Positions 2,908-62,940 of a stretch of 64,000 nucleotides of DNA are shown here, piece by piece. Within the stretch, counting starts at the first letter, position 1. Each line of letters opens with the position of its first letter. The DNA is taken from assembly GCA_000182565.2 (NCBI GenBank), contig KQ257463.1; one strand, 5' to 3'. The notes under the pieces were generated by a model that saw nothing but the letters and a program-made list of their open reading frames with translations, was not told where the DNA came from and made no database searches. The DNA comes from Spizellomyces punctatus DAOM BR117. Its lineage: Eukaryota. A program made the position numbers and the translations under genes.

Positions 2908-3077
2908 CCTATAGATTCCAGACAAGATGGAAAGAGTCTTGTGGTCTCTGAATAGATGTGTTGGCAAGTGAATGGTGTTCAATATCTGTGCCACTCATTT
3001 TGCCTTATTAGGATAGATGAATGACCAATCAACCTTTTGTAAAGCCAGCCAAACGACGGGCATTTTAAACGCAAAAA

Positions 3078-3617: not shown

Positions 3618-3864
3618 TTAAAGGAATTACCCCACACTCTCCACCCAACAAAAAGTGTTCTTCCACGTGACTGGTCACATCGATTGTGATGACATAATCG
3701 GTACGCGCAAGCGCCCTTCCGTTTTGCCTGAATCCCCTACATAAACACTCTTCTGGATGCTTTTTTCCATTTCGCTCCATTGCTTCACGACGACAACCAC
3801 AACAGAAAACTGACATCTTTATTCTTGGTTTACTTTCTTTTTCTCAAGTGAGAGACCTGGCAAT

Positions 3865-4591: not shown

Positions 4592-4800
4592 ACTTCAAAT
4601 GTGCTATGTTGACTTTTGATGTACTATATACCTTTTTTTTTCTTGAATATTGTCAATTTGTTTTGTGCTTTTACTTACATATGGTACATGGTTCCGTTAC
4701 CATACCGCATTCCATTTCCGCAATTACAAGGAGATGTCAATATAATTTACATTGGAATATGGAAGCACCTCAACTTTCAAAATAATTGTCGTCAATCTTA

Positions 4801-9780: not shown

Positions 9781-10146
9781 ATTGAAAGCTCTGGCATTCA
9801 CCAGAAGCACCAGCAAGCAGAGATCTGAAGCGTTTCTGCTGAATGACGTGTCATGTTGCGGAGGCAACAAGTGCCATGACAACACAGGCCATATGTCGCG
9901 TCGCGTCATGTCCGAACGTGCCGTCCTCATCGGACAAGCGATCGGATTTACTGGAAAAAATGGAAAAAACATGCCTCTCGACACAAACACACACACAATT
10001 TGCAAAATGAAACAATCTCTTTTTTTTTTTCAAATACACAACATATCGCAAAAAAACATGGTTTGTTATAAAATACGCAAAAGCGCACAGGAGGCCAAAC
10101 ATTAAAATAAAATCCTACAACATTTCTGCAAAACCTAAAGGGCACC

Positions 10147-15764: not shown

Positions 15765-16461
15765 ATAGAACTTTGGCCAGTTATGGCCCATGTATATCAA
15801 CATTCGAAAGAGTAGACAGGCTTTAAATTATATCATTTTTAACATGGGAGCACCCCACTGGAGAGCTCTTTTAGAATTTACAGTTTTGAGAAAAAGAAAA
15901 TCCAGGCAATCCTGATGTGAGCCACATGATCCATACCCCATCGTTTTCCGAATTCACAGTGCCAGTCCATCCCTCACAGTATCCAACCAGGCAAAAGCTG
16001 TAACACACCCAAGAAATGTGATAGTACATTGTTGAATTCACATACGTCTTTGGTGCATTCTCTCCTCTGGAGGGTTGGTCCCAGGTCCGATTCCTGGCGG
16101 GCTCACTCACATGCAAAGATATACATTTCTTGAGGAGACTGCGTTTTAAATACATTTTATATTCGTAGCTATTGCGCAGCAAAAGACTCTTTGCTGAATT
16201 GAACAAGCCTTAATAATCAGGAAGCCCTTTAAAACCACTGTAAGCTGACCAGGCTTGACACGCTATATATACTAGGACATTGTATAATAAAAAAAAATAT
16301 TATATTATCTCAAGGGGCAAAGTAACTCTACCCTCCGTCTGTGTATTTCGTGCAATAAGCTACATAAATCACACTCGTAAAGATCATCAGGGATATGTAA
16401 GCAATTTACACTGGGCTCCTCAGACAAGTCGATAGTCATTTCCTTTCCAAAATTCAAAACC

Positions 16462-20863: not shown

Positions 20864-22405
20864 ATGAACGCAAGTCCAATTAATCCACTATCCAATCCAA
20901 AAGGTCTGCTAGATAATGCTTGTGGGTTACCTATCAGCCATATAGTTCTCACAAGCTGGTACAATTAGGATTAAAGCTCGATTGTGAACTATGCGGGAAG
21001 CCAGCGTGAGTTTGACTTTTTGACTTGCGCTTGATAATCGCTGATGGATTGACGGTGTTTGGATAGGTACTTGCGATGTGAAGGGTGTCGAGTCACATTT
21101 TACTGGTACATTCTTTGAATTGGATTGTTGGGTGGTGTGAGAGAAGACGGAGATTGATATGTGTGGTCTAGTGATAAGGAGCATCAATTGACCGATTTCA
21201 AGGGGATTCATGAAAAGATTTGTGGATTGCTTATTCCATTACGGTGCGTTTTGAATGTAAAGTATGTATATATCTATGGTTTGGTCTAAAAGTGAACGAT
21301 TTTAGTACACCCGTTGCCGTTCTTGGATCCGAAGAAGAACGCGCGCATCGATCGCACCAAACCCTGCACCGCCAACAACAGCTGCTAGAGTTGACGAAAA
21401 CAGAGGCCCACAAAAAATTGTTTGAGGGGAAATATAACCTTGCCATCCCGGCTGCTCTCCAGGCTCTTCGCTTCTCCATTGCAATTCATGGACCCGATGC
21501 CATTGAACTGGTTCCGTCGTATTTGCTTTTGGGCGAGGCGAGTATTGGGTTGAATCAGACCAAGCAGGCGGAGGATTATCTGTCGTTGGCTAAATGGGCG
21601 GTGATGAGGTGTGGGGAGGTGGATTTGGAGGTCAAAGCGCAGTTGCATCGAAATTTTGGGTTATTGTTCAAGGCAAAGGAAATGGCAGAAGAAGCTATAG
21701 AGGAAGTTGCTTTGGATGTGAGTACTTTTTGAGTTTTTTCTGATATGATATAGTGGCACTGATTTTGGTTGTCGTGAAACTTGTGATCAACAGATATATT
21801 ACTCGTCCCTCAAATCCGGCAACCCTGAACACATCTCTGGTACGTTCTGTTCCCCTTCTCATGCATCGGTTTTTGTCTCGTTTTGCAACTAACGCACCTT
21901 GCAGTCGCAGGCGGATACTACCATCTTGGCACTCTTTTCCAATCACTCAACCGCTTCGACGATACAACAAGCATTTACGATCGCATCATCCATATTTACA
22001 AAACATATCTCGGCACGTCCGAGGCACTGAACGAAGCACAGCAGGCGGAAGCTGTACAGATTCTAAAGAGCGCTTTGGCCTACCGTCAGAATTACGTGTC
22101 GTCTCCAATATCTGCCGCAGAAGCGTTGTGGGTTTTCGCGTTACTGTGGAGGAAAGTCGGGTCAAATGAGAAGGCGAGGGAGTTTGCTGGAAAGGCTCTT
22201 GAAGGTACGCTACTTTTTAGTAACTTGTTTGTTTCTCAAACTCTGGAGAGACGTTCCTGCTGACACCCTCCCAACAGCGTACGAGGCAGCACTGGGCCGC
22301 GAGCATTCCATCTCGATTGAAATCCGTGCGTTTTTAAAGACCATGGTGGGGGATTCGGGAGCAAGCAATAGACTAGTAGGAAACAGAAAGAGCAGTAACG
22401 CGTAA
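20864..22405 (+). CDS. ZMYND12: Zinc finger MYND/TPR protein, ZMYND12 homolog (ciliary); multi-exon
   Basis: Micro-exons reconstruct MNASPINPLSNPKG-LKLDCELCGKPA-YLRCEGCRVTFYC-DKEHQLTDFKGIHEKICGLLIPLR, then SEEER...AIPAALQALRF...ELVPSYLLLGEASIGL. Confidence 0.85.
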
Positions 22406-22494
22406 AAAGACTTCACACCAAAAGTCCATTGTGAAAGAAATGATATATTTATTATAACTATAGTGGCAGAAACAGATATCACACATGCTCCTCA

Positions 22495-25400
22495 TCAGCT
22501 TTTTATTTTCAAATCATTTTCATCCTTTTTTTTAAAGTTGTTTTTCTTTTTTACAGGCCCTCCTCCGGCCGGAGCCATTGGCACCCCCACCGCGGTGAGT
22601 CGTGGCCGCCGCTCCACCATCGCGACAGTCAGTCCTGTTCAACCAAAAGACAAGTGGAGAAGACGAGTAAAGAGAAGGGGGGGAAAGGCGAGAAACGTCG
22701 CCTTTTTATAACCCTGGGGAACTGCGCTTTTTTTTTGCAATCGGGAATTCTCGGCGGAAGATTCCCTATCTTGCGTACGTCATTCTTCTGAGCACGCCAT
22801 GAAGGTCCAATCATCGTCGTCGTGTTCACCTCCTGGCAGATCTCCTGGCGTGCGTTCCGTTCCCCCCTTTGGAGTGTGAGGTGAGGATTATGTAAACGCG
22901 TCATTTGTTTATTCATTTTTCCCACGGTCGGTCTTTTGGCTGTTTTCTGAACGGTCTCGAGCAGAGCAAGAGCATTCTTCTACCGGGCTTTCTGTCGTCC
23001 TTTCTTTGGTGGGTCTACTCCGTAGATTCTGCGCAATTTGGTGATGGATGTAGGCTTGGATGGGTCAACGGGTTTGTCTTTTGGGAGCGGTGGGGGCGTC
23101 ACCGCTGAGGTTCTATTCCTCACGCAACTTGAGTTATGGTGTTTGAAAAGAGGTGAAGAAACAAAGAACAGTACCTAGCTGTTATAGGAGCGTTCAGAAT
23201 CCCATCGGTAGGCCGCAAGGACTGTCGTGTTGCCACAAGTTCTACTCCCCGCTCTTCTCCTTCCACTTTTGCTACTCGTTCCTCCAAGGCTTTGACGGCC
23301 CTCTCAACCTTGCCGTCATCAGTCTCCTCAATAGCAGGCACATCCCTATACATCTCCAACAGCTTGGAAGGAACATCCACGGAATGGGTAGTAAGGATTT
23401 GTCGTTGGAGAGAGGTGATTTGGTCCAAGCGGGTTAATTGTGTGCGTGTCTGTTGTAGGGTGTTGGTGAGGTTTTGGAGAAGTGTTTTTTGTTGTGCGGT
23501 GAGAGTTTGGAGGTCTGTGTCTTTTGTTTTTGAAAAGAGTGAGTGGCCTTCGTGTGAACTGCAGAGGAAAGCAATCGGACTTACTTTCAAGGGATGTGAA
23601 ATGAGACTTTATAAGGAGTTCGAGGTATTGTCGGCTTCGGGTGTCAAGAGACCTCGGTATACTCTATTAGGTGGTCAAAACAAGTCCTTGAATACAAAAA
23701 GTGATCTTACGCAAACAGTACCTGCTCAATGCTTCTAATCCCCTCTTCGACCTCTCCAATTTGCTTCAGCACCTCCTCCCTTTGTCCGTCATTCCCGACC
23801 TCCATTTCCAAAAGTCTTTCCCTCAACTCCTGGTGCTCGGCAAATAACCCCAAAAGCACTGAATGAAGCTCTGTAAACATGGAACGTTCTGGCGTCGCTG
23901 GTGTTTTGGGGAGAGGTTCGTCAATAAGGCGAAGACGAGGGGCAAGACTGACGCTATTCCTGGGTTGTATAGTCGTTATGCCGCTTTCGGCTCGCACCAG
24001 GCGATTTTTTAAAAGACCGATTTCGGATTGAAGCTGTTGGATTGTTACGCTATATGTGTCGGTTTTTTGGGATACTTGTTGGGTTACCTATTAAGCCCAT
24101 CATTTTAGGTCACCAGATGATCATCATACGGGCCATATCAGAAACCGTACCTTGGTCTTGATGGCTCGAGCTCGACTAGCATACTTTAATGTATTTACTG
24201 TTTCATCAAAGTTGCTACTCCCAGGACTGATATTAGCGATCATGACCGTCCGGCAATTGCCTCCCAAGGAATCTTTCAAAAGCCGGGTGAGTTTACTATC
24301 GCGGTAGTTGACGTATTTTCCCTTCTTTTTGGTCGTATCCGAGAGCGCTGTTATGCAATTTCCGAGAGCGAGGAGAGAGCGATTGATATTTGCGCCTTCT
24401 ATCATCCGCATGCCGCGATTCTAATATGATACTCTAGTGTGAATAAAGGAGAATAAACGGCAAAAGGCAAGTCATATAAAACTGACCTTTGTCTCCGCAG
24501 CTCTTTCTGACCCTGCCAAATCAATCAGAGAAAGCTTCCCAAACCTCTCTACAATCTTCCCTTTCCGATTCCGCATCCGGCATCCGACCAAAACCTGCAA
24601 CACTGCATGAGACCGTGAAGAAACCTCATTGGCGCCCGTGGCTTCTTGTGTGCGATGTCGATTGCCTTTTCGGAGGAACCCCAAGACTTCTTCGGGGGTT
24701 TTGGCTGTGACGGTTGTTATCCCTGCTACGACGACGCCTTTTTGGGCATCTTCGCGTAGATCGAGGTAATCGGCTTTCCCAGAAAGCAAGTCGCGAATGT
24801 TTTCATTGTAGATCTCAAGGTAGGATAGGGTTACAGTGTAGGTTCCTTGAGTGGTAGCGTCCTCGCCTTCGACTTGTTGCTCTCTATTGTGGGCATCGAT
24901 GAGGGTGAATAGGTCCATGAGTGTTAGGGCCATGATACCAGGTGCTGAATCGGTTCCGAGCATGGTGTACGTTTTGCCGGCCCCTGTTGCGCCTGAACAT
25001 TCACTGCGCACATTAGCAATGAGTTGGCGTTCAAAAACTTTATATTCCGTCTGTGTGCATACCATAAGCAAAAACAGTCGCATTATACCCCTTGACGACC
25101 CACTCGATCAAATACTTGACCGTTTTGTCAAACACCTCGGTTTGTTGGGCACCTTCACCAAAGACCCGGTCAAATGCGTATATTCGCTCTTTGGGACGGT
25201 CTTTGCGTAGGACATCGTCGTATTGATCTGGAGTGGGTTCCGTCACGAGGACTGTCTGTTGAGAAACGCAGAATGAGGTATGATACTATGGTTGGATGGT
25301 TTTTGTAGATTAGGGAGTTTTTACCTGGTCGTCGTGGGATCGTGCAGTGATTTGAAGGTTCTCCTTTGCGAGTTCTTTGAGTGACAGTGGACGGATTCGG

Positions 25401-25539
25401 ACAGACACCTAGAGCAACATGGCCGTTAGATTCATCAAATATCTCTAATGCATTCTCTCTTTTGAAAACGTAAAAGATGTACCATCAATTTTGCCACTGA
25501 AGATCCGGCAACGCTTTCTCGTTCTGCTTCTTCCGCCAT
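22495..25539 (-). CDS. Kinesin-8 family motor (KIF19/KIF18-like); multi-exon, 3' end uncertain
   Basis: Motifs [78 protein letters not shown] and [20 protein letters not shown]. Confidence 0.9.
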
Positions 25540-26394
25540 TATCAAAAAATAGATACTGGGAACCGATGCTGATCGTGTTTTTTGGGCGGGATTGAGAGTG
25601 GTTCGGAGAGAAACAGCAAAAAACCCAACCACCCAGAAAAAAATCGTTCCGAACCAAAATAGCAAGTGTTCAATGGGGAACCTCCGTTACCACTATGAAC
25701 TTGTACCGCCTTGATGCGAAACAACCATCCAACAAAAAAGATCTTTGCCTTCTATCACACTCCAATGAAACCAACACACACAAAAAGAAACACCCGGCCC
25801 ACCGTATCTATATCTCAACTGTTTTTTTCTTCTCGGGATGGTGGTTCGGTGGGTCGGGATATGCCCCATCCCGATGAAAGGGTGGTTTGCCGTTTATTCA
25901 AATAATCTCAACGGCGTTTAGGAAAGAATGGTATTTTTGTTATACGAGGTTTATTATAAAGCGTCTTGTCATTTTTTGTTCTTAGTGTTGGGCTGCTTGT
26001 GTTTTTTTTGTTGATGTTTGAATGGTGGGGCCTATGAAGCGCGTATTTTCCTTGTTTGCCCTCCGTATTTTGATTACCTCATCTGCGCTTGTATATCTTT
26101 TTGGGATAGCCCAGCTGTAGAAGTTTTTTTTTCAAAAACGTTTTTTTTTTATCTTGGTTTGATGACATTCCTTTGTTTTTTATATTGTGGGATTTTAAGG
26201 ATACATTACCAAACTTTGGAAATCAACCTTATGATGATGGCATGTGAAGCATTGCATGATCGTTTAATAAACGACTCTTGTGAAGCAAAAGTTTGCCAAA
26301 AAAGCAAATGCATATACGCTTCCTTGTGCTGTGTATGTACACCACACAAATTTCATTAAAATAAAAAAAAAACAAGCAAGACATCCTTTTGTCT

Positions 26395-50448: not shown

Positions 50449-50809
50449 CCACCTGCCAACGTTGTAGAGGTATGTACAAAAGACAATGAGAGCTTCTCAG
50501 ACCAAAAAAAAAGAGATTATTCTTGGGAAGATAACAAAAAGCCTCAATGGTGAGGGATGATCCTGCTAGTGCTGTCCCAATGTACCGCACAGTGTCCACA
50601 GACAAGTTTATTCAAAAAATAATGCTGGCATTTATACGGATCAATATGCTTGATCCTTGATTTGAAATTTCAAAAATACTGGCCGCCATGGCGGGGCAGT
50701 AAGATATAAATAGCTTTGCTCACAAGTAAAAACAAAGGGTTAGGTTGGGTTGCGGTCACATGACACTAAGTTCATTGAGATACAGTACATTAAAGAGTCC
50801 GAAAGCATA

Positions 50810-51048
50810 GTGTGGAGGTGATTGAAAATGGCACTAGAACCCCGCATAATCAGCACCCCCTCTATTGCTCAAAACGGTGTGGCATGTATTGTAATGTTTT
50901 TTTTTTTTTAAACTGCGGTGAGGCGCATGCCAAAGGTCTATGAAAGGGGGGCCTTTTCCTAGTAGTAGTTAGTTAGCTTTTCCGAACCGGTTGTCGCCGG
51001 TTTATTCCCTGGTGTAGTAGCTAGTGCCAGTTTCTGTCACCTCTACAC
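50810..51048 (+). mobile_element. Non-autonomous TIR element (Fanzor 'ghost' / Spu-1-like), short 239-bp copy
   Basis: Ends TAGTGTGGAGGTGATTGAAAATGGCACTAG and reverse complement TAGTGTAGAGGTGACAGAAACTGGCACTAG match at 26/30. TA occurs on both sides (50808-9, 51049-50), the left flank is CATA, and the element is homologous to the inverted copy at 56307-57019. Confidence 0.88.
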
Positions 51049-51065
51049 TATTAGGATTCAATCGT
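50976..51065 (+). ncRNA. Putative Fanzor omegaRNA: 75-nt scaffold plus ~15-nt guide (TTAGGATTCAATCGT)
   Basis: Scaffold GCTTTTCCGAACCGGTTGTCGCCGGTTTATTCCCTGGTGTAGTAGCTAGTGCCAGTTTCTGTCACCTCTACACTA with hairpins AACCGG/CCGGTT and GGTGTAG/CTACACT; it closely resembles the SpuFz1 omegaRNA as recalled. Confidence 0.75.
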
Positions 51066-51555
51066 ATCAATATTAGGACCTCATGCACCTCAACCCATCA
51101 CCATCAATTATGGTACTCTACTGATGCCCGCAAGTCACAGAAACGAAAAGAACCAGATATAATTTAAAACTTTAGAAACATGCAAATAAAAAGAACATTG
51201 CACAAATGCAACGAGAAGGCGTGTTTCTCGCAGCTACGTGCTTATCCGTCAGTAAGTAAAGGATTACATCAGCAAGTCTCGCTGGTCTCCTTGCTGTTTC
51301 CCTCCCTCCTTCTCGGTCTCCCCCCCTCTCTCTCTCTCGGCCATAACGCGCCCAAGTCCCCGCTTCCAGAACAGGGGCTGACTCTCTACCCGATCACAGC
51401 GGGATACTATATCCGCCAAGAAAAGAAAAAAAACCAATACAACCTTCCCTAAATACAAAGCCATCAATCGCTACATGCAAGAAAAAGGCCACTGGGTCAT
51501 GAGGTTGAAAATGCCGTCATTCGAATCTGATTCCATTCCTTTGTTTTTCTTTCGT

Positions 51556-53039
51556 TCACAAGCTTCCCATGTTCGATGGGTCTTCCAAATCATTCGAACT
51601 TTGAGCCAATTCACCAAAGTCTACAGGCCCGTCGTCCGGTAATTCGCCATCTATATACGAAGTCTCGAGGCTACTCATCAAATATGGATTGTTTGATCCT
51701 GTTTCTCCTGGAGTTGATCCAGAGTTTCGTCTCATGTCGGTTCGGATGTGTAGTTTGATGCCTTGCCGAGCCAGACACTTGGCAAGTTGGGAGGACTCTA
51801 CAACAAAGAACATGTCAAGAACGCTGGACGCGTGAAAACGACCGCCAATCTATCCAACTTTACCAGTCATTCCAGGAAATGTCTTTGGGGGGAATACTGC
51901 AATGATGTCGGACATTGCCGATGCCATGGCTTGTGAAGCATCCTTGGTGATGTCGTACAAAAAGAATTTCAACCGATAATGGCCGCCCGTTCTTATGCTC
52001 AAGTCGGCAAACTAATGGAGCGATAACAGAATATTCGAACCTTGGTCTCGGAAAGGTGGCGTGCTATTCTTATAAAAGAACTTACCGTGAAGAAAAGCGC
52101 CTTTTGTCCGTCAACATCTGTGAGAATGTGGCAAGGGCTCACCAGGGAGCCTACAAGAACGGAAACGTAGCTAGAAGGTGGTGGCGTCAAGGTTGACTCT
52201 CCTGCGAAGAGCGATTCAGTTCGTCGTGCGGCAGCACTGCCCGGATTCAAGACGACTCCTCGCTCTTCTGTTCCATCTGCCGACCAAAGCGACGCATGAC
52301 AAACGAGCGACGTACTTTCCTTGTAGCTATGGACAAAACAGAGACAAATTCACCGTCAGATCATCTGCACGGAGGTATGGAAAAACACATTTTTGGTATT
52401 ATGTGTCTTTACTACATGTCCACTTACTCTAAAACGACTCGATCCCCCTCCCTTCGGATGAGTTGTAGGATTGGTGCTGGATCAACAGGGCGGTAATCCT
52501 TTGTTCCAAAGCCACACATTCGAGCCCGATTGGGCTGTTGGCGAATGATGAGTTCGTATAATCTGTATTCAGAAGAAAGAAAAAAAAAAGAAAAACCAAC
52601 ACCCACGCACACACACACAAAAGCGTCGAAAAATGGTCAGCGAAAAGATATATGGATACGACTGTCGTTTGTTGCCGCAAGCAAAAGACTCCTCTACAAA
52701 AGGCATGTGTGGCGGCTACGCCAACACACATGCGCAAAGGACATGCGAGTTGCGGGGAGACTTGCCATAATGCGCAAGCGTATTTCACTTAAACCCTTCA
52801 CTCCCAAGCGTGCAAACCGCGACAGCGTGAAAGACACCAGTGAATAACTTTTGCCCATCCGCCCCGAAAGAACCCAACTCTACTACGGTATTGTTAAGCC
52901 ATGCCAAAAACAACAACTTTATTACGTACATTATGGGGGAAGGAGGAGGAGGATTGGACGGAGGAGACAAGCTGGCAGACGTAGCCGTGGCACCGGCCGA
53001 GTCAGTATTTTCTGTGGGACCCACTGGAGACGCGTGCAT
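51556..53039 (-). CDS. Velvet-domain transcription regulator; multi-exon
   Basis: YELIIRQQPNRARMCGFGTKDYRPVDPAPILQL, LVGSLVS, LSIRTGGHYRLKF and VFPPKTFPGMT-ESSQLAKCLARQGIKLHIR are hallmark velvet motifs. Confidence 0.9.
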
Positions 53040-54583
53040 TGGGCGGCCAACAGAAGCGACAACAGGGTCGGTCCGAGGGTGTGATAGAGCTTCTCAACTT
53101 TGTTGAAACTGTTTACTTGTCTTTTGTAAACTGGATCGGCGCGATACGGCGGCGGGTTATGACGAAAGGATTAAAAGAATGAGCGTATGTGTGTTTTGTG
53201 CGTTGGTGTGTGAGTCGCCAGGTCCCCCCACGGACGGATTGGTGCTTTAATCGTCCCGGGGAGGCGAAGCGGGTCCTAGCAAGAAAAAGTACACGGAGTA
53301 CGACGGAGGGGGCCGTGCGGTTGGCAGCGAACGAGTACCGGGTAGAGGGTAATAATGTCCTGATATGCGTGTGTTGGGCAACTGAACGGACGACCTCCAA
53401 GATTTAAAAATACGGGAGGTTCTATCACGACGATGATTCGGAACAAGAGCGTTACCAAAGGGCAACAGGACCGCCATATAGACACGAAAAGGAACGCTAA
53501 AGGGCTAAATAAAAAAAAGGATCTGTCAACAAGGGAGGGGGGGTGGAATATAAAGGAACTCGCTAGCAAGGCAAGCCGCAATGGGAGGGAAATGGGAAAA
53601 GAAACGAGTTGCGGGAATCCGCGGAAATGCAACTTGTCTACGGAGAGCGAGAGAGGGCGGGTTTGTTGTTCTGTGTGGGAATTTTGTGTTTTTCTTTTCC
53701 TTGTTATTTTTGTGGTGTCTATGGCTATTTCAAATATGTGTCTATTATCGAATATGAGTGCATATCGATTCATCTTTGCAACCCATACGACATATTCAGG
53801 TGGACATTTGAACATGGCCGCACAAACAAGTCGCATTATCGCAAGTTCCGATCTCCTTTCAAACAATGAGAAAAAAACAAATAAAAAAACGACGTATTAT
53901 TCCCCCCCCTTTGAGTTCTCTCACTCTCTCTCTCTCATATTTGTAAATGTAAGCGTATTTTCCCGATCTGATTTTCCCCATCTATTTGAACGTTGACATT
54001 TTGCCGTTCTCCTGGTCATTGGCATACCCATGATTGGGAGCGCATGGGACTTGTGGGTCTAGAACCCGTATTTGCTATGGACCCCATGCACCCAGTATCC
54101 AGTGTCTTGGAACCACCCACCACGGTCACTCCACGGACGGAATTTCAAGACATTTTATCCTTGTCTCTTTTGTTCAGCCCATTTTCTCTCTCGTTGGTGC
54201 TGAGCGGATGGGGTGTTTGTGGGAAAAAGCAAAAAAAATGGAGATGAACAAGGCATAGGAGGCACAGCCATTAAATGTGTTACTATGGATATTTGGCACA
54301 ATTCATGTCTCTCAAACACAGCAAGAAAACCACGCAGTTAAAGAACGAGGCTTACCACTTGTAGATTTTTGCCGTGACGCCGTGGGCCCCCCCTTTCCAA
54401 CTGGCGGTTTGCTTTGTTCACGCAAAACAACGCTAAACGCTACCGCGGTCAAACGTCTTTCACTTGCATTCATTAACATCCCCCTGCTATTGAAATTCCC
54501 TGACGAAAAAAGGTTAAGGTTCCCCCCCTCCTTCAACCTGAAACTCCCAGCCACCGTGAAGAATCCTTTGTCAACACAAAACG

Positions 54584-56100
54584 ATGAAAAGGGATATTCT
54601 GATTGTCGGAGCTGGTCCTTCAGGACTGGCAGCATTGAAGGCACTCAAGCAACACAATCAAACAAAAAGCTGGAAGCTTGTCGTCGCTGAACAACGATAT
54701 GGAATCGGCGGTGTTTGGTATTGAAAATTGAACTATGATCAGCAGTTGCACATGAACAACGGATGGGCCGAATGTTGATTGTTTTAACAAAAATTGCAAC
54801 TTCTAGGCTGCCGTCGTCTTTGACGCCCATCCCACCGGACCTGCCCTCGTCCCCGATCTACGACTCGCTCACCACAAATTTGCCTCATCCGGTGATGGCG
54901 TTCTACTCCCATCCGTTCCCCCGAGCCACTCCGCTTTTTCCCGGTCACCCCGTCGTATTGAAATACCTGCAGGCATTTGCGGAACGGTTTGCTCTCTTGT
55001 CGCACATTCGCTTTGGGCACAAGGTCGTGGGTGCAGAATGGGATCCTCGTGTTCAGAAATGGCGGACAAGATTTTGTACGCGGAAAAGGAACACGCCAGA
55101 AATGGCTGACGCGTCTGAACACGAACGCGCAGCCAACGCGTCTGAGGAAATGTACGACGCGATTCTAGTGTGTTCTGGACACTACCACTATCCCAAAACG
55201 CCGGATTGGCCAGGCGTCAACGAGTGGACTCTGCATGGGCGAACCTTGATGCATGCTTGCTACTATCGGCGACCGCAACCTTTTCGCAACAAGGTGGTGT
55301 TGATCGTAGGTGCAGGCCCTTCAGGGAGAGATCTGAGCAATGAGATTGCGTCAGTTGCACGACAAGTGTATCACTCTGTTCCTTGGGCATGGCATCCTGC
55401 ACGATCTGCAACACCCATCGTCCATACGACATCGTCAGGCATTGCTCTCAAGCCTCCCATCCGCAGATTCCACTCGAATGCTATAGAATTTGAAGATGGT
55501 ACACAACTGACGGACGTTGATATTGTCATTGCTGCCACCGGTTATTTCTATCGTTACCCTTTTTTACCTTCCAATATCCTCTACGATCCATCCCAATCTC
55601 CAACCGCGCCTTCAAGTGCCTCCCTCTTTTGCGATGGTTCTCATGTTGAACCTCTCTACCAGCACATGTTTCCGATAACACCGACGTCACCTGCAGCTCC
55701 TAATCTCATCTTCTTTGGACTCCCGTCCAAAGTTGTTCCTTTCCCATTGTTTGAGATCCAAGCGCTTGTTGCAACTAATCTCCTGTTAGGTAAGAAGCAA
55801 CTTCCACCCTTTGATGCCTTTCAGGATATCCCACATTCGCATAACCTGCCGAACGAGAAACAATTTGCATATTGTAATAGCCTTGCTGAATGGGGTGGCG
55901 TAAGAGATTGGCAGGTCAAGGACTGGGTAGTGGAAATGTACGCTAAAAAAGATATTCTGCGGAAAACTTGGCAGGAGGTTGAAAGACGAGGTGAGCAGCA
56001 CCTCCAAGAGTGGATTGGAGGCGTGGAAGGAGAGAATGAGTGGGTCAATGTTATGAGACGATTAATCGCATTGGGAGAAGAACAGGCCAGTCAGGGGTGA
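54584..56100 (+). CDS. Flavin-containing monooxygenase (FMO1-like); 2 exons
   Basis: Exon 1 MKRDILIVGAGPSGLAA...GIGGVW (54584-54717), intron to 54806, then YDSLTTNLP, CSGHYHYP, MHACYYR, IVGAGPSGRD and IAATGY. Confidence 0.92.
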
Positions 56101-56289
56101 TTAGGAGTATATTCAATACGTCTAAAGCCTGAATGGCTACCGTCCTCGGATGCAGCACCCTTCGACGGTCATTTATAGAATCTTGCATATTCTGATATCT
56201 CCATAGTACAGGAAGAGATTGGGCCTCACACATCATTTACCCTGGGCAAAAACTGAAATTCTAACTGATTGTCTATATTCCACCCGCAG

Positions 56290-56379
56290 TAATAGTTCTG
56301 TGATTAGTGTAGAGGTGACAGAAACTGGCACTAGCTACTACACCAGGGAATAAACCGGCGACAACCGGTTCGGAAAAGC
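56290..56379 (-). ncRNA. Putative Fanzor omegaRNA: 75-nt scaffold plus ~15-nt guide (ATCACAGAACTATTA)
   Basis: Scaffold 56305-56379 is identical (75/75) to 50976-51050; the downstream flank is different. Confidence 0.75.
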
Positions 56380-57019
56380 TAACTAAGCTACTACTAGGCA
56401 ATTATACACGCAATACGTAACGGTTGGTTCTAACCGGATAATTGCCCACCACCACACGCGGTCCCTACTAGGCCTTGATCCAGAACTCTTGATGGCATTG
56501 AAGCCAGACTCTTGCATCCAGGAGCGAATCGACTGGGCAGCGTCACAAGCCAGAGGATGTTCAGTGACAAGACTTGGAGACTAAAACGGCATGTCAGCGA
56601 GAGAACAATATGAAAAGAGATGATGCCATTGGTACTTACCAACCAAGCTCAACAAGTGTAGCAGCATAATAGTAGGCTTTGTTATCGGATCCAATTGGTT
56701 GCCGCTGGTTCTGATCACGATTGCTGTCGGGCGGTCGAGGTCCTCGGCACCACCACATCGGCGTTCTCATGACTGATGAGAGTTGGGCAGATGCTTTGAG
56801 TCGAGGGATAAAGAAACAAGAGGAAAGAGACAGAAGGTCCCCCTTTTATAGACCTTTGGCATGCGCCTCACCGCAGTTTAAAAAAAAAAAAAAAAAAAAA
56901 ACATTACATGCATGCCACACCGTTTTGAGCGATAGAGGGGGTGCTGATTATGCGATATGATTAACCGGAGTGAGCCGGATAATAATGAATCTTAGTGCCA
57001 TTTTCAATCACCTCCAAAC
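56307..57019 (-). mobile_element. Non-autonomous TIR element (Fanzor 'ghost' / Spu-1-like), long 713-bp copy
   Basis: Reverse complement of the 50810-51048 element with ~440 bp extra internal sequence (~56399-56835). TA at 56305-6 and 57020-1; CATA at its left end on the minus strand. Confidence 0.88.
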
Positions 57020-57268
57020 TATGGATAAAGTTAAGATTAAGGCACAGTAACACCGCTAACCAACGGCACACTGCAACTACGGGGCAGTGACTGCGTGCAT
57101 TTAAGTGAATCAATGCATTCTAACCTCCATATTGGGTTGAGTGCAGGAGTGGAAAGTCTGCGCCGCTTACGTATCCTGATCGTCAGATTGTGACTGCGCC
57201 GTCAGTGGGAGAACCATCAGTGAACAACGAGTTCAACCCATCTGCGAGCCCAGTCTTCCCACCCAGAT

Positions 57269-58581
57269 ATGGCCCCTGTTGCACGCTTCCGCTTCCATGC
57301 CCTCCGTCGATACAGTAGCATCTCAACATGCCCGACTACATCCACAGCCGCTCTCGCCTTTGACATGGATGGCGTCCTAATTCGCGGTGGAAGGGCGATC
57401 CCAAGTGCCCATCGTGCATTGCAAAAGTTGAAGGGTGATAACCCATTGAATAGGTGTGTGAGCTGATTACTGTCTGCCGTACGGGCCATGGTTTTGCGAC
57501 AAGTCACAACTGCTTGTTGTATGTTGTGGAAAGAGATGAAATTGGCTTGGACCCATTGAATACAATTGACTCTTTCGTTTAGAGAAATTCCATTCATTAT
57601 TTTAACGAATTCAGGCGGAGAATCAGAAGCTAGTAAAGCTCATAAATTAACCCAAAAGCTCGGTATTGAGGTACTAAAAAAAACACTCAAAATCCAACGA
57701 ATCCGCATCCTAATACGGCGATGTTTCTAGATCCATCCATCGCAAATCGTTCTATCCCATTCACCGATGCGTCACCTGGCACCCCAATACAAGAACAAAT
57801 TGGTCCATGTTGTCGGACCTGATGAGTGTAAAAATGTTGCACAATCCTATGGATTCAGCGATGTGGTAACGTCCAAGGAAATGAAGGCGTTCGATAAAAG
57901 CATGTGGCCATATCGCTCTGTTGGGGACGAAGTGGACGACACGGTCTGTTCTTGATTGGGACCCCTTTGTGATTGGATGCATTAGATTGACTCGTCAATA
58001 TTTTCTAGCAATGTCCTTACGATCTATCCCAAACTCCCATATCCGCCACCCTCATCTTCCACGATCCAATAGACTGGGGCCTCGACATCCAACTCATCAC
58101 CGATACACTCGCCTCTCAATCTGGATTAATTACAACACGCCAACCGTCTCGTCCCTACTCCCAATCTACACCCTTGTACTCCTCGAATGCGGATTTTCAG
58201 TGGAGTAATGAATGGCCGTGGCCGCGGTACGGTCAAGGCGCGTTCGTGACTGCCTTGAATGCAGTCTGGAAAAGATTGAGCGGAAACCCGCTTGTCATTG
58301 AGAAACAATTTGGAAAACCCTCATCTCCCACGTATGAGTTTGCTGAAAAGATGTTGAGTGCCGCTGCGGGTGTAGAGGTCAAAAAGGTGTATATGGTCGG
58401 GGATAACCCGGATTCAGACATTGCCGGGGCAAATCTTCATGGATGGGTTGGCATTCTTGTAAAGTCGGGTGTATACAGGGACGGAATGCCATTAACCAAA
58501 AAGAACAAGCCACAAGTGATTGTTCAGGATGTCGGTGAGGCTGTTGATTGGGTGTTGAGGCAAGAAGGAGTTCTCAGATAA
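57269..58581 (+). CDS. HAD-superfamily class IIA hydrolase (CECR5/HDHD5-like), probably mitochondrial; multi-exon
   Basis: AFDMDGVLIRG, IPFIILTNSGG, HDPIDWGLDIQ, SNADFQW, RYGQGAF, FGKPS and YMVGDNPDSDIAGAN; presequence-like N-terminus. Confidence 0.92.
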
Positions 58582-58828
58582 ACTCCGAATAACTTGCACA
58601 ACAATCGCCTCACAACTTGACTGCTTATAGAATATCACTGATGAATGCCAAGAAATAGGAAAAGGCAGTCCGTAAATCTATTTCGCATAGCATGTCTACA
58701 GTATTTAGAAAGAAGGTAAAAAAAAAGTAACCTAAAGTACCAGAAGGGGATCTACTCTATAAAACCGTAATAACTATTTAAGTACAACTGGATATGGATC
58801 CGTTTTTCATGCGTGAGGACTCGTCGCA

Positions 58829-60729
58829 TTAATCATATCTTCGATTGCCATAAGGTGGGTAAGACGCGTCGGATGAGTAGGAAGGGCTATGTGGCTCTTG
58901 AGCTGGGAAGTAACCCTTGTCTTGGGCAGAAGGATACAGTCGTTGTCCATCCGGGTGCAAAGGCTGTTCACCAGTGGGCGTAGCACTATATCCAACAGGG
59001 AAAGGAGGGTTCACAACCTCATATCCCTGTCGTGCCTGCATAGGCTGTTGAACATTGTTCATCGTCGAGGACGCTGTCGACGCAAATCTTCCAAGGCTGC
59101 TCTCCCTCTTTCCAAATTGCAGACTATCCATCGTGGTCATTGTGCCCATTCCATCATCGGATCCCCAGTGATCGTCCGATTGCGGACTATCTACGGGATT
59201 TTTGGCTCCATCGCGAGAGTTGTAGGGCGCCACACACGCGAGAGGGAAGGAACCTTCTTGCTTGGTCGTCATGTTGAAACCGTACCCCCAACCGTCATCG
59301 AACTTGCATTTAACAATGACTGGGTCGCCAATATCTAGAAAAAGATGCGTATCACGCAGTTAAGCTTAAAACTCCAAACAAAATTGAGAACGAACGCTAC
59401 TCACAAAGATAAATCTCATCAGAGAGATTCGGCACATAGTTATATATGACTTCCATGGTTTCCGCGATTTGGATTGGTTCACCGACATCTCCCTCTCTAT
59501 TAGCCGCAGCAGCCGCAGCGGGGGCCATCGCACCAGCCATCAACATTCCACCTTTCTCATCCCCACCTCCGATTTTCCTCCCGCTGCTACCATCCTGGCC
59601 ACTCGCGCCACTTCCCAAGATAAAGCCATCGGGAAGTTGTCGTGCAGCGCGCTTTCGCCGCCCAACGATCAAGACAGCTCCTACAGCAACGAGGGCAACA
59701 AAGCCGGCAACCGATGCGCCAATGATCACTGCATTACTGGGTTTACCGTACTCGGAGTTACTTTGAGTCTGGCTGCTGGGCCCGTTTACTCCAGAGGTTG
59801 AAGCAGTTCCCCCTGTTCCCCCTGGAGTTGTCCCCTGCGAGCCACCACCTCGTGTGGTGGACGTTGGGCCGCCCACAGATGTGGGAACTACGATGGGTTG
59901 ATTGGCTAGTTTGGCTTTCTGCGCTTGACAACAGAGATCCGAGGATGTAGCGGCTGCACTACAATAAGCCGTGGCTTCAGCATCTGTCCAAAATCCTGTC
60001 ATAACAAAGTGAATTGTGTGAGTTACGTCATCCATGCCCGAACAGCGGATTCAAAGACGTACCGCACATGGCCCATTCAAACGGCAATGCAGCAACACAG
60101 TCCACATCCGTGGTCATCCTCCTCATAAACGTTTCAGTAGTATTCGGAAACGGTCTGGCGACGCCTGGCGTGCAACTCTTTGCGTCTGCATAAATCTCTG
60201 TCAAACTATCAACGGCCTGCTTTGCTGTTTTGCTACACAGTGGCCCTGGGATGTTGGTAGGGTTACAGCCGTTCACAGTCGAGACGTCAATGACCATTCC
60301 GCAGAGGAAGGAAATGTGATATCGTCGCCCCTTGCCATTCCAAGTGGGACAAGCATTATCTCGTTGAAATGTAGCAAGGGAAGTTGTGGTGTTGTCGTAA
60401 AGGGATTGAATGTAAGCGTCAAATGCGGTCAGATTGGCAAAGCTAGTAGAAGCTTGAATAGTGTAGTCTGCGAATAGTTGGAACGAGTTATATGACAGAC
60501 TGTTAAAACGCCAAGAACAAAAAAACTTTTGGGAGCCCGCGTCGCCCGACGTACCTTTCCATGCGGTACAGGTTGTCGTCCCAGCGAGTGAAAAGCACGT
60601 AGGCTGCCCTGCTATGCCAGCTGGCACACCAGCTCCTGGTCCTAGGTCCGAAGTCGTCTGTGCATTCACACCCCAGAATGCTACCCCAACCAGCAATCCC
60701 GACAATACGAGTCCTTTTCCATGTGCCAT
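58829..60729 (-). CDS. Single-pass membrane protein: signal peptide, Cys-rich ectodomain, S/T/G linker, TM helix, cytoplasmic SH3
   Basis: Signal LVLSGLLVGVAFWGVNA; multiple Cys; TM VIIGASVAGFVALVAVGAVLIV-GRRKR; SH3 VIYNYVPNLSDEIYL|YIGDPVIVKCKFDDGWGYGFNMTTKQEGSFPLACV. Confidence 0.8.
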
Positions 60730-61445
60730 ATTCCACACAATGAGGTCGTGGCTCCGATCGGATCACTCTTTATAGAACTCTTACTGCCGGTCTTGAAATG
60801 CCAAAAAGACAAAAAAAACTTGAACCCCTCCTCCAATACTCGAATGCCTTTTGTTTCTTGACACCCTTTTTCCAAGAAACCAACCTACGAGCAGCCCCCC
60901 CCCCCCCCCAATCAAAAAGTGCAAAACGGTCAACCGCTGCCCGTCACACACGCGGTCCGCTTTCCCAATTGAAGGAAAAAGAAATGCAAAAGGTGTGAAA
61001 TTTGATGAGATAATTCATTTCTCCATTTATGGTATTCATGATCATAGGTCACGTGGTAGATATCGGAGGCTTAGTATTCCGCCGCGATTTTTGCTCTTTT
61101 TGTATTTGAACAGAACGGACATGAAAGACGTTTTTTTCAAGCATCGTTTTATTTTTATTCAGAGTTTCCAATGGCGTCAAATGGTTGGGACACATGGAAT
61201 GCCTTATTTTGTTCATGAGCTATCGTTCTCTTCGATCTTGTTGATACATGTTGAGAATTCCAGCTCCGTTTTGCGATCAATGGCATATTTCCTTTGTAAT
61301 CAGTTTGCAGTGTTGTCATCGGCATTCATTGTAAAATGGCACTCTCTGTTCAGGATCTCATTCGTTCTGTTCAATCTGTTCATAGCAGATATTGTAAAAA
61401 AGGCTGGAATACACTGTCATCCATATCCAGATGCGTGGCTGGGTG

Positions 61446-61676
61446 GAGAATCGCTTCGATTGTATCTTGATCTACCGTGGGAAAGGATGGTGCAGATAGG
61501 ATGTAGAATTTGAGAGCATGGGAAGCATGGTCAGCAAGTTGATGGATGATGGCGATGTAATCTAGAAGCCATTGGTGGTAGTTTGGCAGGAAAGCTTTTG
61601 CAAAGGAAGTTTTGTTACAGGTATGTAAGGTGGGTTTGTCGAGTTTTTCAAGCTTTTGCTTTTTCTTTGGCGGCAT
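61446..61676 (-). pseudogene. Fanzor1 (TnpB-derived RNA-guided nuclease) N-terminal remnant
   Basis: MPPKKKQKLEKLDKPTLHTCNKTSFAKAFLPNYHQWLLDYIAIIHQLADHASHALKFYIL...DTIEAIL is near-identical to the SpuFz1 N-terminus as recalled, including the PKKKQK NLS. It switches to unrelated sequence after ~77 aa; no RuvC. Confidence 0.85.
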
Positions 61677-61856
61677 GATGATCTCTGTGGAAAAAGATGA
61701 AAGCCTGGGAAAATGGGCACGACAACTTATATAGGATTTTTGGATCAAACCATAGTTCATGAGTCTAAATCGAGTAAAATTATGATATGTGTGCTATGTA
61801 AGTGACGGACACGGCGGGAGGTGTCGCAGCGTTTTTATACCGTTCATCCTTTAACA

Positions 61857-62940
61857 ATGTCCACCTCCACCACAACCTACGAGACAATCGTCATTGGCGG
61901 CTCGTTTGCCGGTCTCTCCGCGGCCCTCCAGATCGCCCGCTCCTGTCGTAAAGTTCTGGTCATTGACAGCAGTGAAAACCGGAACCGCTTTGCACAACAT
62001 GCTCATGGGTTCCTGGGTCACGACGGAAAATCTCCCAGTGATATTTTAACAGAGTCCAAAGCGCAGTTGAGGCGATACTCTGATTGTACGATTGTTGAGA
62101 ATGTGCGTGTTGTCTCCATCCAAAACTTGACTGCAGAAAAGGGAGCCAGTCCCTCTTTCAACGTTGTTACATCCGATGAAAAAACCTTGCACACCCGCCG
62201 CATTATCCTCGCCACAGGCCTCAAGGACAACCTTCCTCCTGTTGAAGGCCTCCAAGAATCCTGGGGCAAATCCGTCTTTCATTGCCCTTACTGCCACGGA
62301 TACGAATTCCGCGGCAAGCCCTTGGGACTCCTCTATACCACTCCTATCCAGAGTCATCAAGCTCGCTTGTTACCAGACCTTACAAAGGATATTATCCTCT
62401 TTACGGGTGGTGCGATCAATGGTACCGAGTCCGTGTTCCCTGCTGTTCAATTGAGCACTGAAGAGACGGCGTTGTGGGAGAAATTGGGAATAAAATTGGA
62501 GCACACGCCAGTGAGCAAATTCGTTCGGGATTCAAATGCCGAGTCCGAACTCTCCTACGTGGAATTATCGGATGGTCGGAAAATTGAGCGAAGGGGAGTA
62601 TTACTCCTCCCACCTTTGACCCTGTCTACACCCAATCTCGTCGCTGATCTCGGTTGCGATGTGACACCGAGTCCGTTTGGTGTGGACTTGATTAAAGTTG
62701 ACCCGGCGACGCAAGTTACGTCGATTCCGGGCGTTTACGCGGCTGGTGACTCTGTGAGGCCTATGAATGTGTAAGTTTTTCTGTTTGGTCTTCCGGTTTG
62801 TGGTGACTTTGGGATTTACTGAAATGGTTGATTCTTGGGATTCTTTAATTTATAGGGCGGTGGCGGTCGCCGATGGATCCATTGCGGGAATCATGTGCCA
62901 TCAGTCTTTGGTAGCCGAAGATATCAAGAAAATCCAATAG
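61857..62940 (+). CDS. FAD-dependent pyridine nucleotide-disulfide oxidoreductase (TrxB-like/GliT-like); 2 exons
   Basis: IVIGGSFAGLSAA, NRFAQHAHGFLGHDG, ILATG, active site HCPYCHGYE and TSIPGVYAAGD; intron 62771-62855; final exon ends CHQSLVAEDIKKIQ*. Confidence 0.9.

What the first reader, a model, noticed from the sequence alone, without database searches (positions are those of the whole stretch)
50808..61733. Dispersed eukaryotic RNA-guided (Fanzor/OMEGA) system: two guide-RNA-only transposons plus a Fanzor remnant within 11 kb
Seen: two copies of one TIR element (50810-51048 +, 56307-57019 -). Each has ~30-bp imperfect TIRs, a TA duplication, CATA at the left end and a structured 75-nt right end ending CACTA. 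A truncated ORF starting MPPKKKQKL lies 4.4 kb further on. Established (recalled): Fanzors are eukaryotic TnpB relatives whose omegaRNA overlaps the transposon right end and takes its guide from flanking DNA; SpuFz1 uses a 5'-CATA TAM; ORF-less 'ghost' loci occur in S. punctatus. Inference: these loci supply guide RNAs in trans to an intact Fanzor encoded elsewhere, so this is a known class of system seen in a local, nuclease-free configuration.
Basis: partly seen in the sequence, partly recalled or inferred. Interest (0 to 1): 0.93.

Follow-up and report, generated by a model that had tools for sequence, protein, structure and literature searches.

The report
Known Fanzor "ghost" guide-RNA transposons

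Summary
Two copies of one TIR element lie at 50810-51048 (+, 239 bp) and 56307-57019 (-, 713 bp). Each has ~30-nt inverted repeats, a TA duplication and CA just upstream, giving CATA. Their last 75 nt are identical and fold well (z -3.8). The ORF piece at 61443-61676 (-) is 82-92% identical to residues 1-~82 of the S. punctatus Fanzor proteins, including SpuFz1 of PDB 8GKH. The rest of that gene is missing.

All of this matches Saito et al. 2023, who described 134 "ghost Spu-1" loci and 42 full or partial Fanzor loci in this genome. They also reported the CATA TAM and a 75-nt scaffold with a 14-15-nt guide. Ghost scaffolds already work with SpuFz1 in human cells (2023 and 2026 papers). Fifteen of the 18 omegaRNA scaffold nucleotides named in that paper match this right end, allowing one 1-nt offset.

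A public RNA run shows abundant sense-strand RNA from the ghost family, but I could not assign it to these two loci. The 11-kb clustering shows no functional link.

Small additions: the long copy carries a TATA box and a spliced 59-nt intron upstream of the scaffold. The short copy is an internal deletion.

Verdict: already known, low interest.

The parts
50806..50809 (+). CATA at the left junction of copy 1: conserved CA plus the left TA target-site duplication. It equals the SpuFz1 TAM.
   Evidence: Sequence. Paralog contigs fit from 50806 onward (table 7). TAM CATA from PMC10432273.
50810..51048 (+). Copy 1: a short (239 bp) ghost Spu-1 element. It is internally deleted relative to copy 2, lacking the equivalent of about 56401-56833.
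   Evidence: IRs are 50807-50837 / 51021-51051, 87% complementary (I5).
50976..51050 (+). 75-nt omegaRNA scaffold of copy 1: 8 unpaired nt, stem-loop 1 (nt 9-28), 6-nt linker (nt 29-34), stem 2 (nt 35-75, with a 3-nt bulge).
   Evidence: Fold. Nucleotides named in PMC10432273 section 10 match at 15 of 18 positions, allowing one 1-nt offset. Sense-strand RNA depth is 4,591-11,704 against 3-32 antisense (table 3); this is family-level signal.
51051..51065 (+). Predicted 15-nt guide of copy 1 (flank directly after the right TA). Inferred, not shown to be transcribed from this locus.
   Evidence: Position follows the published scaffold/guide boundary A75|U76. Sequence printed. No other TAM-plus-target match in the window.
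56290..56304 (-). Predicted 15-nt guide of copy 2 (inferred).
   Evidence: same logic as for copy 1.
56305..56379 (-). 75-nt omegaRNA scaffold of copy 2, identical to that of copy 1.
   Evidence: 75 of 75 identical. A paralog contig in X8 carries both G14>A and C23>U, a compensatory change in stem-loop 1 (tables 3 and 8, record 17).
56307..57019 (-). Copy 2: a long (713 bp) ghost Spu-1 element, flanked by TA (56305-56306 and 57020-57021) with CA at 57022-57023.
   Evidence: The paper gives ghost loci a conserved region of about 550 nt between 30-nt IRs. The interior has multi-copy depth in X1/X2: 32-236 against 2-4 in the flanks.
56844..56850 (-). TATAAAA box inside copy 2. Copy 1 has TATGAAA at the same place, where every read from other copies carries A (50942 G>A).
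   Evidence: table 3: at 50942, 72 of 72 X6 first_mate_on- reads and 2 of 3 first_mate_on+ reads carry A, as does all X1/X2 depth.
56581..56639 (-). 59-nt GT..AG intron in the ghost transcript. It is spliced in RNA reads.
   Evidence: table 5: joint 56580/56640, 14 reads with 9 starts, all first_mate_on-. The same junction is used in gene model P0024.
56388..56565 (-). Most abundant RNA segment, directly 5' of the scaffold. It holds a long hairpin (56398-56446).
   Evidence: X6 depth 15,826-25,766 at 56430-56482, falling to 2,332-3,932 at 56566-56572; X8 contigs of depth 42-113. Fold. No Rfam family.
61443..61676 (-). Fanzor1 (SpuFz1-family) gene fragment: residues 1 to about 82 only. [quoted passage not shown]
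   Evidence: 23 proteins at E<=0.001 among 39 candidates; the 20 best-scoring are named S. punctatus DAOM BR117. (P0015 is the 8GKH chain). (tblastn of 23 Fz proteins: this is the only significant match in the window).
61677..61786 (-). 5' non-coding part of the Spu-1 Fanzor element, shared with other copies up to 61786. No left inverted repeat was recognised.
   Evidence: X1/X2 contigs diverge after 61786, and an X2 unique contig ends at 61443; no IR-like match here.

Best explanation
The window comes from Spizellomyces punctatus, or something nearly identical to strain DAOM BR117. The two TIR elements belong to the published 'ghost Spu-1' family. These are non-autonomous TA-inserting transposons without a Fanzor gene, and their last 75 nt encode the scaffold of a Fanzor omegaRNA.

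Inferred mechanism, from the published SpuFz1 work and by analogy with TnpB:
1. The element is transcribed in sense. In long copies this starts from an internal TATA promoter and runs through a spliced leader.
2. The RNA runs across the right end.
3. A roughly 90-nt omegaRNA (75-nt scaffold plus 14-15 nt of flank) is bound by SpuFz1 made from one of the intact Fanzor genes elsewhere in the genome.
4. Both insertions sit in CA|TA. The empty site left by excision would therefore read CATA followed by exactly the guide sequence. The RNP would cut the element-free allele or sister chromatid, and repair would copy the element back.

The third piece is a dead 5' fragment of a Fanzor gene. It makes no nuclease and has no demonstrable link to the two ghosts.

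Shown here: the anatomy, the homology, and sense-strand family-level RNA. Shown in print: ghost scaffolds work with SpuFz1 in human cells. Inferred: guide use from these two loci, loading in the native host, and the retention role.
For: Identity of the nuclease family.
- The ORF piece is 82-92% identical to the N-termini of S. punctatus proteins.
- One of them, P0015, is identical to the SpuFz1 part of PDB 8GKH.

Ghost features (PMC10432273) met here.
- IRs of about 30 nt.
- CA upstream of the left IR in both copies.
- No Fz coding inside: tblastn of 23 Fz proteins found none.
- An interior of roughly the published size (about 550 nt) in copy 2.

Scaffold.
- The fold gives stem-loop 1, a 6-nt linker A29-C34, and stem 2 at nt 35-75 with a 3-nt bulge. 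This is as the paper describes for ghost omegaRNAs.
- A29, C32, C34, U35, G37, A72 and A75 match at the same numbers.
- UCC (nt 5-7) and UGUCG (nt 16-20) match with a +1 offset.
- C40-G70 is replaced by U40-A70, which still pairs.
- A paralog contig carries G14>A together with C23>U, a compensatory change in stem-loop 1.

TAM and guide logic.
- The published target oligos read CATA directly followed by the guide, and the scaffold ends at A75.
- Here, CA+TA+flank gives that arrangement for both copies.

RNA.
- In run X6, depth over the scaffold is 4,591-11,704 sense against 3-32 antisense.
- The library direction was calibrated by the GT..AG intron (14 reads against 0) and by the + strand FMO-like and HAD-like genes.

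Function in trans.
- 75-nt ghost omegaRNAs from four loci gave editing comparable with the improved canonical omegaRNA.
- 126 unique ghost scaffolds were clustered and 12 representatives tested; those closest to the canonical and ghost1 scaffolds generally edited better than the more distant ones.
Against: - I could not align the right end to the canonical SpuFz1 omegaRNA sequence itself. No genome is held and the sequences sit in figures and supplements. The match rests on 18 nucleotides named in the text, of which 3 do not match and 8 need a 1-nt offset.
- The RNA reads are family-level. 112,222 of 118,283 laid X6 reads fit only in part, and many carry letters of other copies. No read was shown to cross into the guides of these two loci, and no start or end pile-ups were reported (table 6).
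- Copy 1 lacks the interior and has a mutated TATA box, so it may be silent.
- No transposase for these elements is known (the paper's discussion), so the excision-and-homing step is unproven.
- I could not check whether these two loci are among the 134 listed, because supplements are closed.
Confidence: 0.88

Rival explanations
1. Inert MITEs. The two elements are ordinary decayed non-autonomous TA-TIR transposons. The RNA signal comes from other family members, and these two loci make no working guide RNA.
For: - No locus-specific read across the scaffold/guide junction was shown.
- Copy 1 has lost about 430 bp of interior and has TATGAAA where 72 of 72 X6 first_mate_on- reads and all X1/X2 depth from other copies show TATAAAA (table 3).
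- Copy 2's small ORF is frameshifted relative to gene model P0024.
Against: - Both scaffolds are intact and identical (75 of 75), whereas the left blocks differ by 5 substitutions and 42 gap columns.
- Ghost scaffolds of this kind are active with SpuFz1.
- The family is heavily transcribed in sense.
- Read-through from a neighbouring gene could still supply RNA for copy 1.
Confidence: 0.15
2. A local functional unit. The two ghosts and the Fanzor fragment lie within 11 kb because they work together or arose together as one dispersed system.
For: Three Spu-1-related pieces lie in 11 kb. Cut-and-paste elements often hop locally (general knowledge).
Against: - The Fanzor piece covers residues 1 to about 82 only. 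It has none of the catalytic residues named in the paper (D383, E541, D606) and no omegaRNA or IR nearby.
- Unrelated host genes lie between the pieces.
- With 134 + 42 loci in a genome of about 24 Mb (size recalled, from no call), roughly one such triple is expected by chance.
Confidence: 0.03
3. Ghost elements are not protein-less. The long form encodes a conserved small protein of about 105 aa, whose stop codon lies just before the omegaRNA scaffold.
For: - A spliced transcript exists.
- The annotated model P0024 (SPPG_08830, 105 aa) is 82% identical to the exon-2 frame of copy 2.
- Of the family variants listed, 5 of 7 in exon 1 and 4 of 7 in exon 2 fall on third codon positions and are synonymous.
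Against: - The gene models on other copies read exon 2 in different frames (P0024, P0025 and P0026).
- The only relatives among 1.84 billion representatives are S. punctatus models plus two repetitive chance hits.
- No Pfam family was found.
- The Atlas model has pLDDT 0.32.
- Only 40 of 55 variants were listed, and I chose the exon-2 frame after seeing the data.
Confidence: 0.1

Closest known systems
Ghost Spu-1 elements of S. punctatus DAOM BR117 (Saito et al. 2023, Nature; PMC10432273)
   Same: 30-nt IRs. CA upstream of the left IR, which with TA gives the CATA TAM. No Fanzor ORF. A conserved 75-nt right end with the omegaRNA fold, including the 3-nt bulge in stem 2. A conserved interior in the long copy. 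Same organism.
   Different: Nothing of substance. Copy 1 is a 239-bp internal-deletion form lacking most of the ~550-nt conserved region. I could not check whether either locus is in the published list of 134.
Canonical Spu-1 Fanzor element and SpuFz1 omegaRNA (PDB 8GKH; Bao & Jurka 2013, PMC3627910)
   Same: TA duplication. A 75-nt scaffold made of two stems and a 6-nt linker. The guide is taken from the flank right after the right end. The Fanzor fragment at 61443-61676 is 82% identical to SpuFz1 itself.
   Different: The ghosts carry no nuclease gene. Their IRs differ from the Fz-locus IRs (at 7 positions, per the paper). Their scaffold differs in stem-loop 1 register and in stem 2. The Fanzor piece here is a fragment with no catalytic part.
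Bacterial IS200/IS605 TnpB-omegaRNA systems and their non-autonomous derivatives
   Same: The guide RNA is encoded at the transposon right end, the guide comes from the flank, the TAM sits at the left junction, and the expected target is the element-free site. Protein-less copies rely on a nuclease made elsewhere.
   Different: The elements here are eukaryotic, have TIRs and TA duplications, have no TnpA-type transposase, show Pol II-type features (TATA box, spliced intron), and need a nuclear-localised nuclease.

Membership tests
Ghost Spu-1 element (Saito et al. 2023) | About 30-nt inverted repeats at both ends | tested here: met
   31 nt, 87% complementary in copy 1. Copy 2's ends match those of copy 1 (I1, I4, I5).
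Ghost Spu-1 element (Saito et al. 2023) | Conserved CA upstream of the 5' IR | tested here: met
   Both copies read CA-TA-IR. Paralog contigs fit from C50806.
Ghost Spu-1 element (Saito et al. 2023) | No Fanzor ORF between the IRs | tested here: met
   tblastn of 23 Fz proteins at E<=10 gives no match in 50806-51050 or 56305-57023.
Ghost Spu-1 element (Saito et al. 2023) | [quoted passage not shown] | tested here: met
   Indirect test. 15 of 18 nucleotides named for the canonical omegaRNA match, allowing one 1-nt offset (10 of 18 at identical numbers). The fold has the published parts. No direct alignment was possible.
Ghost Spu-1 element (Saito et al. 2023) | Conserved interior of about 550 nt | tested here: inconclusive
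   Copy 2 has an interior of about 650 nt that is multi-copy in DNA-like runs. Copy 1 lacks about 430 nt of it. I had no reference alignment.
Ghost Spu-1 element (Saito et al. 2023) | Listed among the 134 loci / 126 unique scaffolds | not testable with these tools
   The lists are in supplementary data, which are closed. A 20-nt stretch of the scaffold is not in either main text.
Fanzor1 nuclease gene (SpuFz1 family) | Sequence homology to SpuFz1 | tested here: met
   82-92% identity over residues 1 to about 82, E 1e-39 to 1e-30 for the 14 best-scoring hits. P0015 is the 8GKH chain.
Fanzor1 nuclease gene (SpuFz1 family) | RuvC catalytic residues and NUC zinc finger (D383, E541, D606 in the paper) | tested here: not met
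   Similarity ends at 61443. Nothing downstream matches in any frame. This is a fragment, not a gene.
Functional omegaRNA locus | Sense transcript of scaffold plus 14-15 nt of its own flank | tested here: inconclusive
   Family-level sense RNA is abundant, but no read was tied to the guides of these two loci.
Functional omegaRNA locus | Bound by Fanzor and directs TAM-dependent cleavage | not testable with these tools
   Published for other ghost scaffolds in human cells, not for these two.

The most novel reading that the evidence does not exclude
Long ghost Spu-1 elements are self-contained Pol II transcription units. They carry a TATA box, a leader with a spliced 59-nt intron and a conserved 5' hairpin module. 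Their abundant sense transcript carries the omegaRNA as its 3' tail. In the native host, ghost RNA far outnumbers Fanzor mRNA, so ghost loci rather than Fanzor loci would be the main source of guides. The main texts I read, and searches, describe neither the intron, nor the promoter, nor native ghost expression.
Probability: 0.45. Interest if true: 0.4.

Novelty: already known. Interest (0 to 1): 0.15.

Why it matters
Fanzor is the eukaryotic RNA-guided nuclease, and S. punctatus is its best-studied host. Ghost loci matter because they suggest one nuclease serves a large pool of guides encoded by protein-less transposons. That idea, the loci, their anatomy and the activity of their scaffolds are already published for this very genome, so the finding adds no new kind of system.

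What this check adds is small. It gives a worked example of two loci with their predicted guides and self-targets. It shows that a 239-bp deletion form keeps a perfect scaffold. It also gives public-read evidence that the ghost family is strongly transcribed in sense, from a spliced unit upstream of the scaffold. That last point makes the question of where native guides come from easy to test.

Tried and rejected
- Whole-genome search: no genome is held for this window, so I could not count copies or fetch a canonical Fanzor locus.
- Metagenome scan with SpuFz1 (P0015): 159 pattern matches, none a relative.
- Metagenome scan with a 20-nt stretch of the scaffold: 4 contigs, all chance matches of 20-21 nt in unrelated GC-rich DNA with no Fanzor coding.
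- Rfam: no family on 50500-57300 apart from a chance viral hit at E 0.65 elsewhere.
- Run search: no RNA holder listed. The runs I laid came in as holders of unknown kind or by species label.
- Text search of a 20-nt scaffold stretch in the 2023 and 2026 papers: 0 occurrences.
- Pfam on the Fanzor fragment and on SpuFz1 itself: no family in this copy of Pfam, although the protein table lists PF26935 for the full-length proteins.
- Second targets for the two predicted guides in the window: only the loci themselves, plus 3-mismatch hits without CATA.
- IR or scaffold next to the Fanzor fragment: none, only an 11-nt match at 61333-61343.
- Differential conservation from the two copies alone: 0 of 75 substitutions in the scaffold against 5 of 145 in the left block is not significant by itself. 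I dropped this argument.
- Ghost-encoded protein: considered and largely rejected; see the rival explanations.
- Copy number from read depth: the tool warns that summed contig depth is no copy number. I use it only to say 'multi-copy'.
Full report
**1. The observation**

The region holds two copies of one element in opposite orientation.
- Copy 1 is 50810-51048 (+, 239 bp) and copy 2 is 56307-57019 (-, 713 bp).
- Their right-hand 82 nt are 100% identical. The left parts match at 88-97%.
- A global alignment gives 140 matches, 5 mismatches and 42 gap columns for the left block. The right block gives 92 matches, 1 mismatch and 1 gap, with the last 75 nt identical.
- The ends of copy 1 form a 31-nt inverted repeat, 87% complementary (I5).
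- Both copies are flanked by TA and preceded by CA, so the left junction reads CATA and the right end reads CACTA.
- A 26-nt IR pattern with up to 3 mismatches hits only these two places, against 0 in 100 shuffles. Low-stringency blastn finds no third copy in the window.
- In run X2, contigs from paralogous copies fit up to 50806 (3 contigs) and up to 56304 (4 contigs) and then diverge (table 7). This fixes the boundaries independently and shows that other copies share the CATA.
- The 75-nt right end folds at -23.4 kcal/mol, z -3.84.

**2. The ORF piece**

The minus-strand ORF starting MPPKKKQKL (ATG at 61676) finds 23 proteins at E<=0.001 among 39 candidates. The 20 best-scoring are named Spizellomyces punctatus DAOM BR117, one more a Spizellomyces sp., and two carry no name. 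Identity is 82-92% over 80% of the query for the 17 best-scoring. One hit, P0015 (638 aa), is identical to the SpuFz1 part of PDB 8GKH. tblastn of all 23 proteins against the window gives one significant match only, 61443-61676, covering residues 1 to about 82. So this is a 5' fragment of a Fanzor1 gene. The catalytic residues the paper names (D383, E541, D606) lie far beyond the break. Read contigs show the repeat homology running from 61444 to 61786. I recognised no inverted repeat or scaffold near it.

**3. What the two elements are**

I read passages and section 10 of Saito et al. 2023 (PMC10432273). For the sequenced S. punctatus DAOM BR117 genome the paper reports:
- 42 loci with full (19) or partial Fanzor genes.
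- 134 'ghost Spu-1' loci that have the inverted repeats but no Fanzor ORF.
- Ghost loci with a conserved region of about 550 nt between 30-nt IRs, which differ from the Fanzor-locus IRs at seven positions.
- A conserved CA upstream of the 5' IR.
- A 75-nt region spanning the 3' IR that resembles the stretch between the Fanzor stop codon and its 3' IR.
- An omegaRNA of a 75-nt scaffold plus a 14-15-nt guide taken from the flank, and the TAM CATA.

Bao & Jurka 2013 (PMC3627910; passages) give TA duplications for SPu-1. Every one of these features is present here.

I could not align to the canonical omegaRNA itself, because no genome is held and the sequences are in figures and supplements. Instead I used the 18 scaffold nucleotides that section 10 names.
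- Numbering the ghost scaffold from 50976, A29, C32, C34, U35, G37, A72 and A75 match at the same numbers.
- U5-C6-C7 and U16-G17-U18-C19-G20 match with a +1 offset.
- G22 does not match.
- C40 and G70 are U40 and A70, which still pair in the predicted fold.
- That is 15 of 18 with one offset, or 10 of 18 at identical numbers. Chance would give about 4-5.

The fold gives 8 free nucleotides, stem-loop 1, a 6-nt linker at exactly nt 29-34, and stem 2 at nt 35-75 with a 3-nt bulge. The paper describes two stems and a linker A29-C34, and says ghost omegaRNAs have a 3-nt bulge in stem 2. The 2024 Cell paper reports seven base pairs in stem-loop 1 (PMC11423790, passages); the predicted stem has eight. 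One paralog contig in run X8 carries both G14>A and C23>U, partners in stem-loop 1, which is a compensatory change (tables 3 and 8, record 17).

**4. How it most likely works**

The 2024 paper's target oligos read CATA directly followed by the native guide, and the scaffold ends at A75. Applied here, the predicted guides are 51051-51065 (+) and 56304-56290 (-). Both insertions sit in CA|TA, so the site without the element would read CATA plus exactly that guide. Each ghost omegaRNA, loaded on SpuFz1 made elsewhere, would thus recognise its own empty site. This is the TnpB-like retention logic that the authors discuss. It is inference: no transposase for these elements is known, and I found no second target for either guide in the window. 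Supply of the nuclease in trans is partly tested in print. 75-nt ghost omegaRNAs from four loci gave editing comparable with the improved canonical omegaRNA in human cells. A 2026 paper clustered 126 unique ghost scaffolds and tested 12 representatives; those closest to the canonical and ghost1 scaffolds generally edited better than the more distant ones (PMC13434818, passages).

**5. RNA evidence from public runs**

The run search listed no holder on record as RNA. I laid four runs on 50600-61900.

Library direction of X6 (raw RNA reads, 60 nt). The first mate has the sense of the RNA, on three grounds:
- The GT..AG intron on the minus strand (joint 56580/56640) is seen in 14 first_mate_on- reads and 0 first_mate_on+ reads.
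- The + strand FMO-like gene gives 71.4 against 10.1 (first_mate_on+ against first_mate_on-) in the bin holding its 3' end.
- The + strand HAD-like gene gives 4.38 against 0 in the bin holding most of its last exon.

Depth on that reading:
- Over the scaffold on copy 1: 4,591-11,704 sense against 3-32 antisense.
- At 56430-56482, just 5' of the scaffold on copy 2: 15,826-25,766 sense.
- Neighbouring genes: bins of 0-71.
- Run X8, whose short contigs look like a small-RNA library, has contigs only at 56327-56565 and 56704-56746.

The limits are serious. 112,222 of 118,283 laid X6 reads fit only in part, and many positions carry letters of other copies. No start or end pile-up was reported, and no read was tied to the guides of these two loci. 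So the ghost family is strongly transcribed in sense, but nothing is shown for these two copies in particular.

X1 and X2 have uniform depth of 2-4 over genes and spacers alike, so they are probably genomic. They show 23-242 over the ghost parts and 4-83 over the Fanzor piece, which is consistent with multi-copy families.

**6. Small additions**

The long copy has TATAAAA at 56850-56844 (-). Downstream lies a 59-nt canonical intron that is spliced in reads, then a hairpin-rich segment that is the most abundant RNA, then the scaffold. Copy 1 has lost about 430 nt of this interior. It has TATGAAA where 72 of 72 X6 first_mate_on- reads and all X1/X2 depth from other copies show A.

A small ORF runs through the spliced unit. 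One S. punctatus gene model (P0024, SPPG_08830, 105 aa) is 82% identical to exon 2 of copy 2. Listed family variants lean towards third codon positions: 5 of 7 in exon 1, and 4 of 7 in exon 2 in a frame I chose after seeing the data. Against a real protein:
- The other gene models read exon 2 in different frames.
- The only relatives among 1.84 billion representatives are S. punctatus models and two repetitive chance hits.
- No Pfam family was found.
- The Atlas model has pLDDT 0.32.

I read it as a spliced non-coding leader. The main texts I read, and searches, mention neither the intron, nor a promoter, nor native ghost expression. Supplements that I could not see may.

**7. The 'local system' idea**

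The three pieces are separated by unrelated host genes. The Fanzor piece is dead. With 176 loci in a genome of about 24 Mb (size recalled, from no call), about one such triple within 11 kb is expected by chance. I see no evidence of a functional unit.

**8. Verdict**

Novelty: already known. Interest: low. The only open and mildly new point is how ghost guides are transcribed and how much they dominate the native guide pool.

Noticed in passing
window 61476-61738: In RNA run X6, reads over the 5' part of the Fanzor fragment are almost all first_mate_on+ (25-126 against 0-7). By my calibration that is antisense to the Fanzor ORF. Most carry letters of other copies, so the 5' ends of Fanzor genes elsewhere seem to have an antisense transcript running towards the left end.
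   Followed up: partly
window 56388-56480 (-): The most abundant RNA segment is not the scaffold but the hairpin-rich ~90 nt just upstream of it. 8,125 reads continue past 56388 with a different sequence, so this module may also sit in another expressed context. No Rfam family matches.
   Followed up: partly
window 56419-56478: A second joint skips 58 nt with non-canonical ends (9 reads). There are also many opposite-strand joints around the 56398-56446 hairpin. These are probably paralog deletions or template switching at the hairpin.
   Followed up: no
window 56954-56988 (copy 2 only): Copy 2 has about 32 extra nt next to the left IR containing a small palindrome (ATTATCCGG...CCGGTTAAT). A similar ATTATCCGG motif recurs in the hairpin at 56431-56439.
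   Followed up: no
P0026 (SPPG_09019, 258 aa), not in the window: This S. punctatus gene model, named as a mannosyltransferase by one source, starts inside a ghost element and reads out into the flank. Some ghost copies have therefore been annotated as parts of host genes.
   Followed up: partly
window 54763-56100 (+), 57269-58581 (+), 61857-62774 (+): Ordinary host genes lie between and beside the elements: an FMO-like monooxygenase, a HAD-like hydrolase and a pyridine nucleotide-disulphide oxidoreductase. The insertions sit in the spacers between them.
   Followed up: partly
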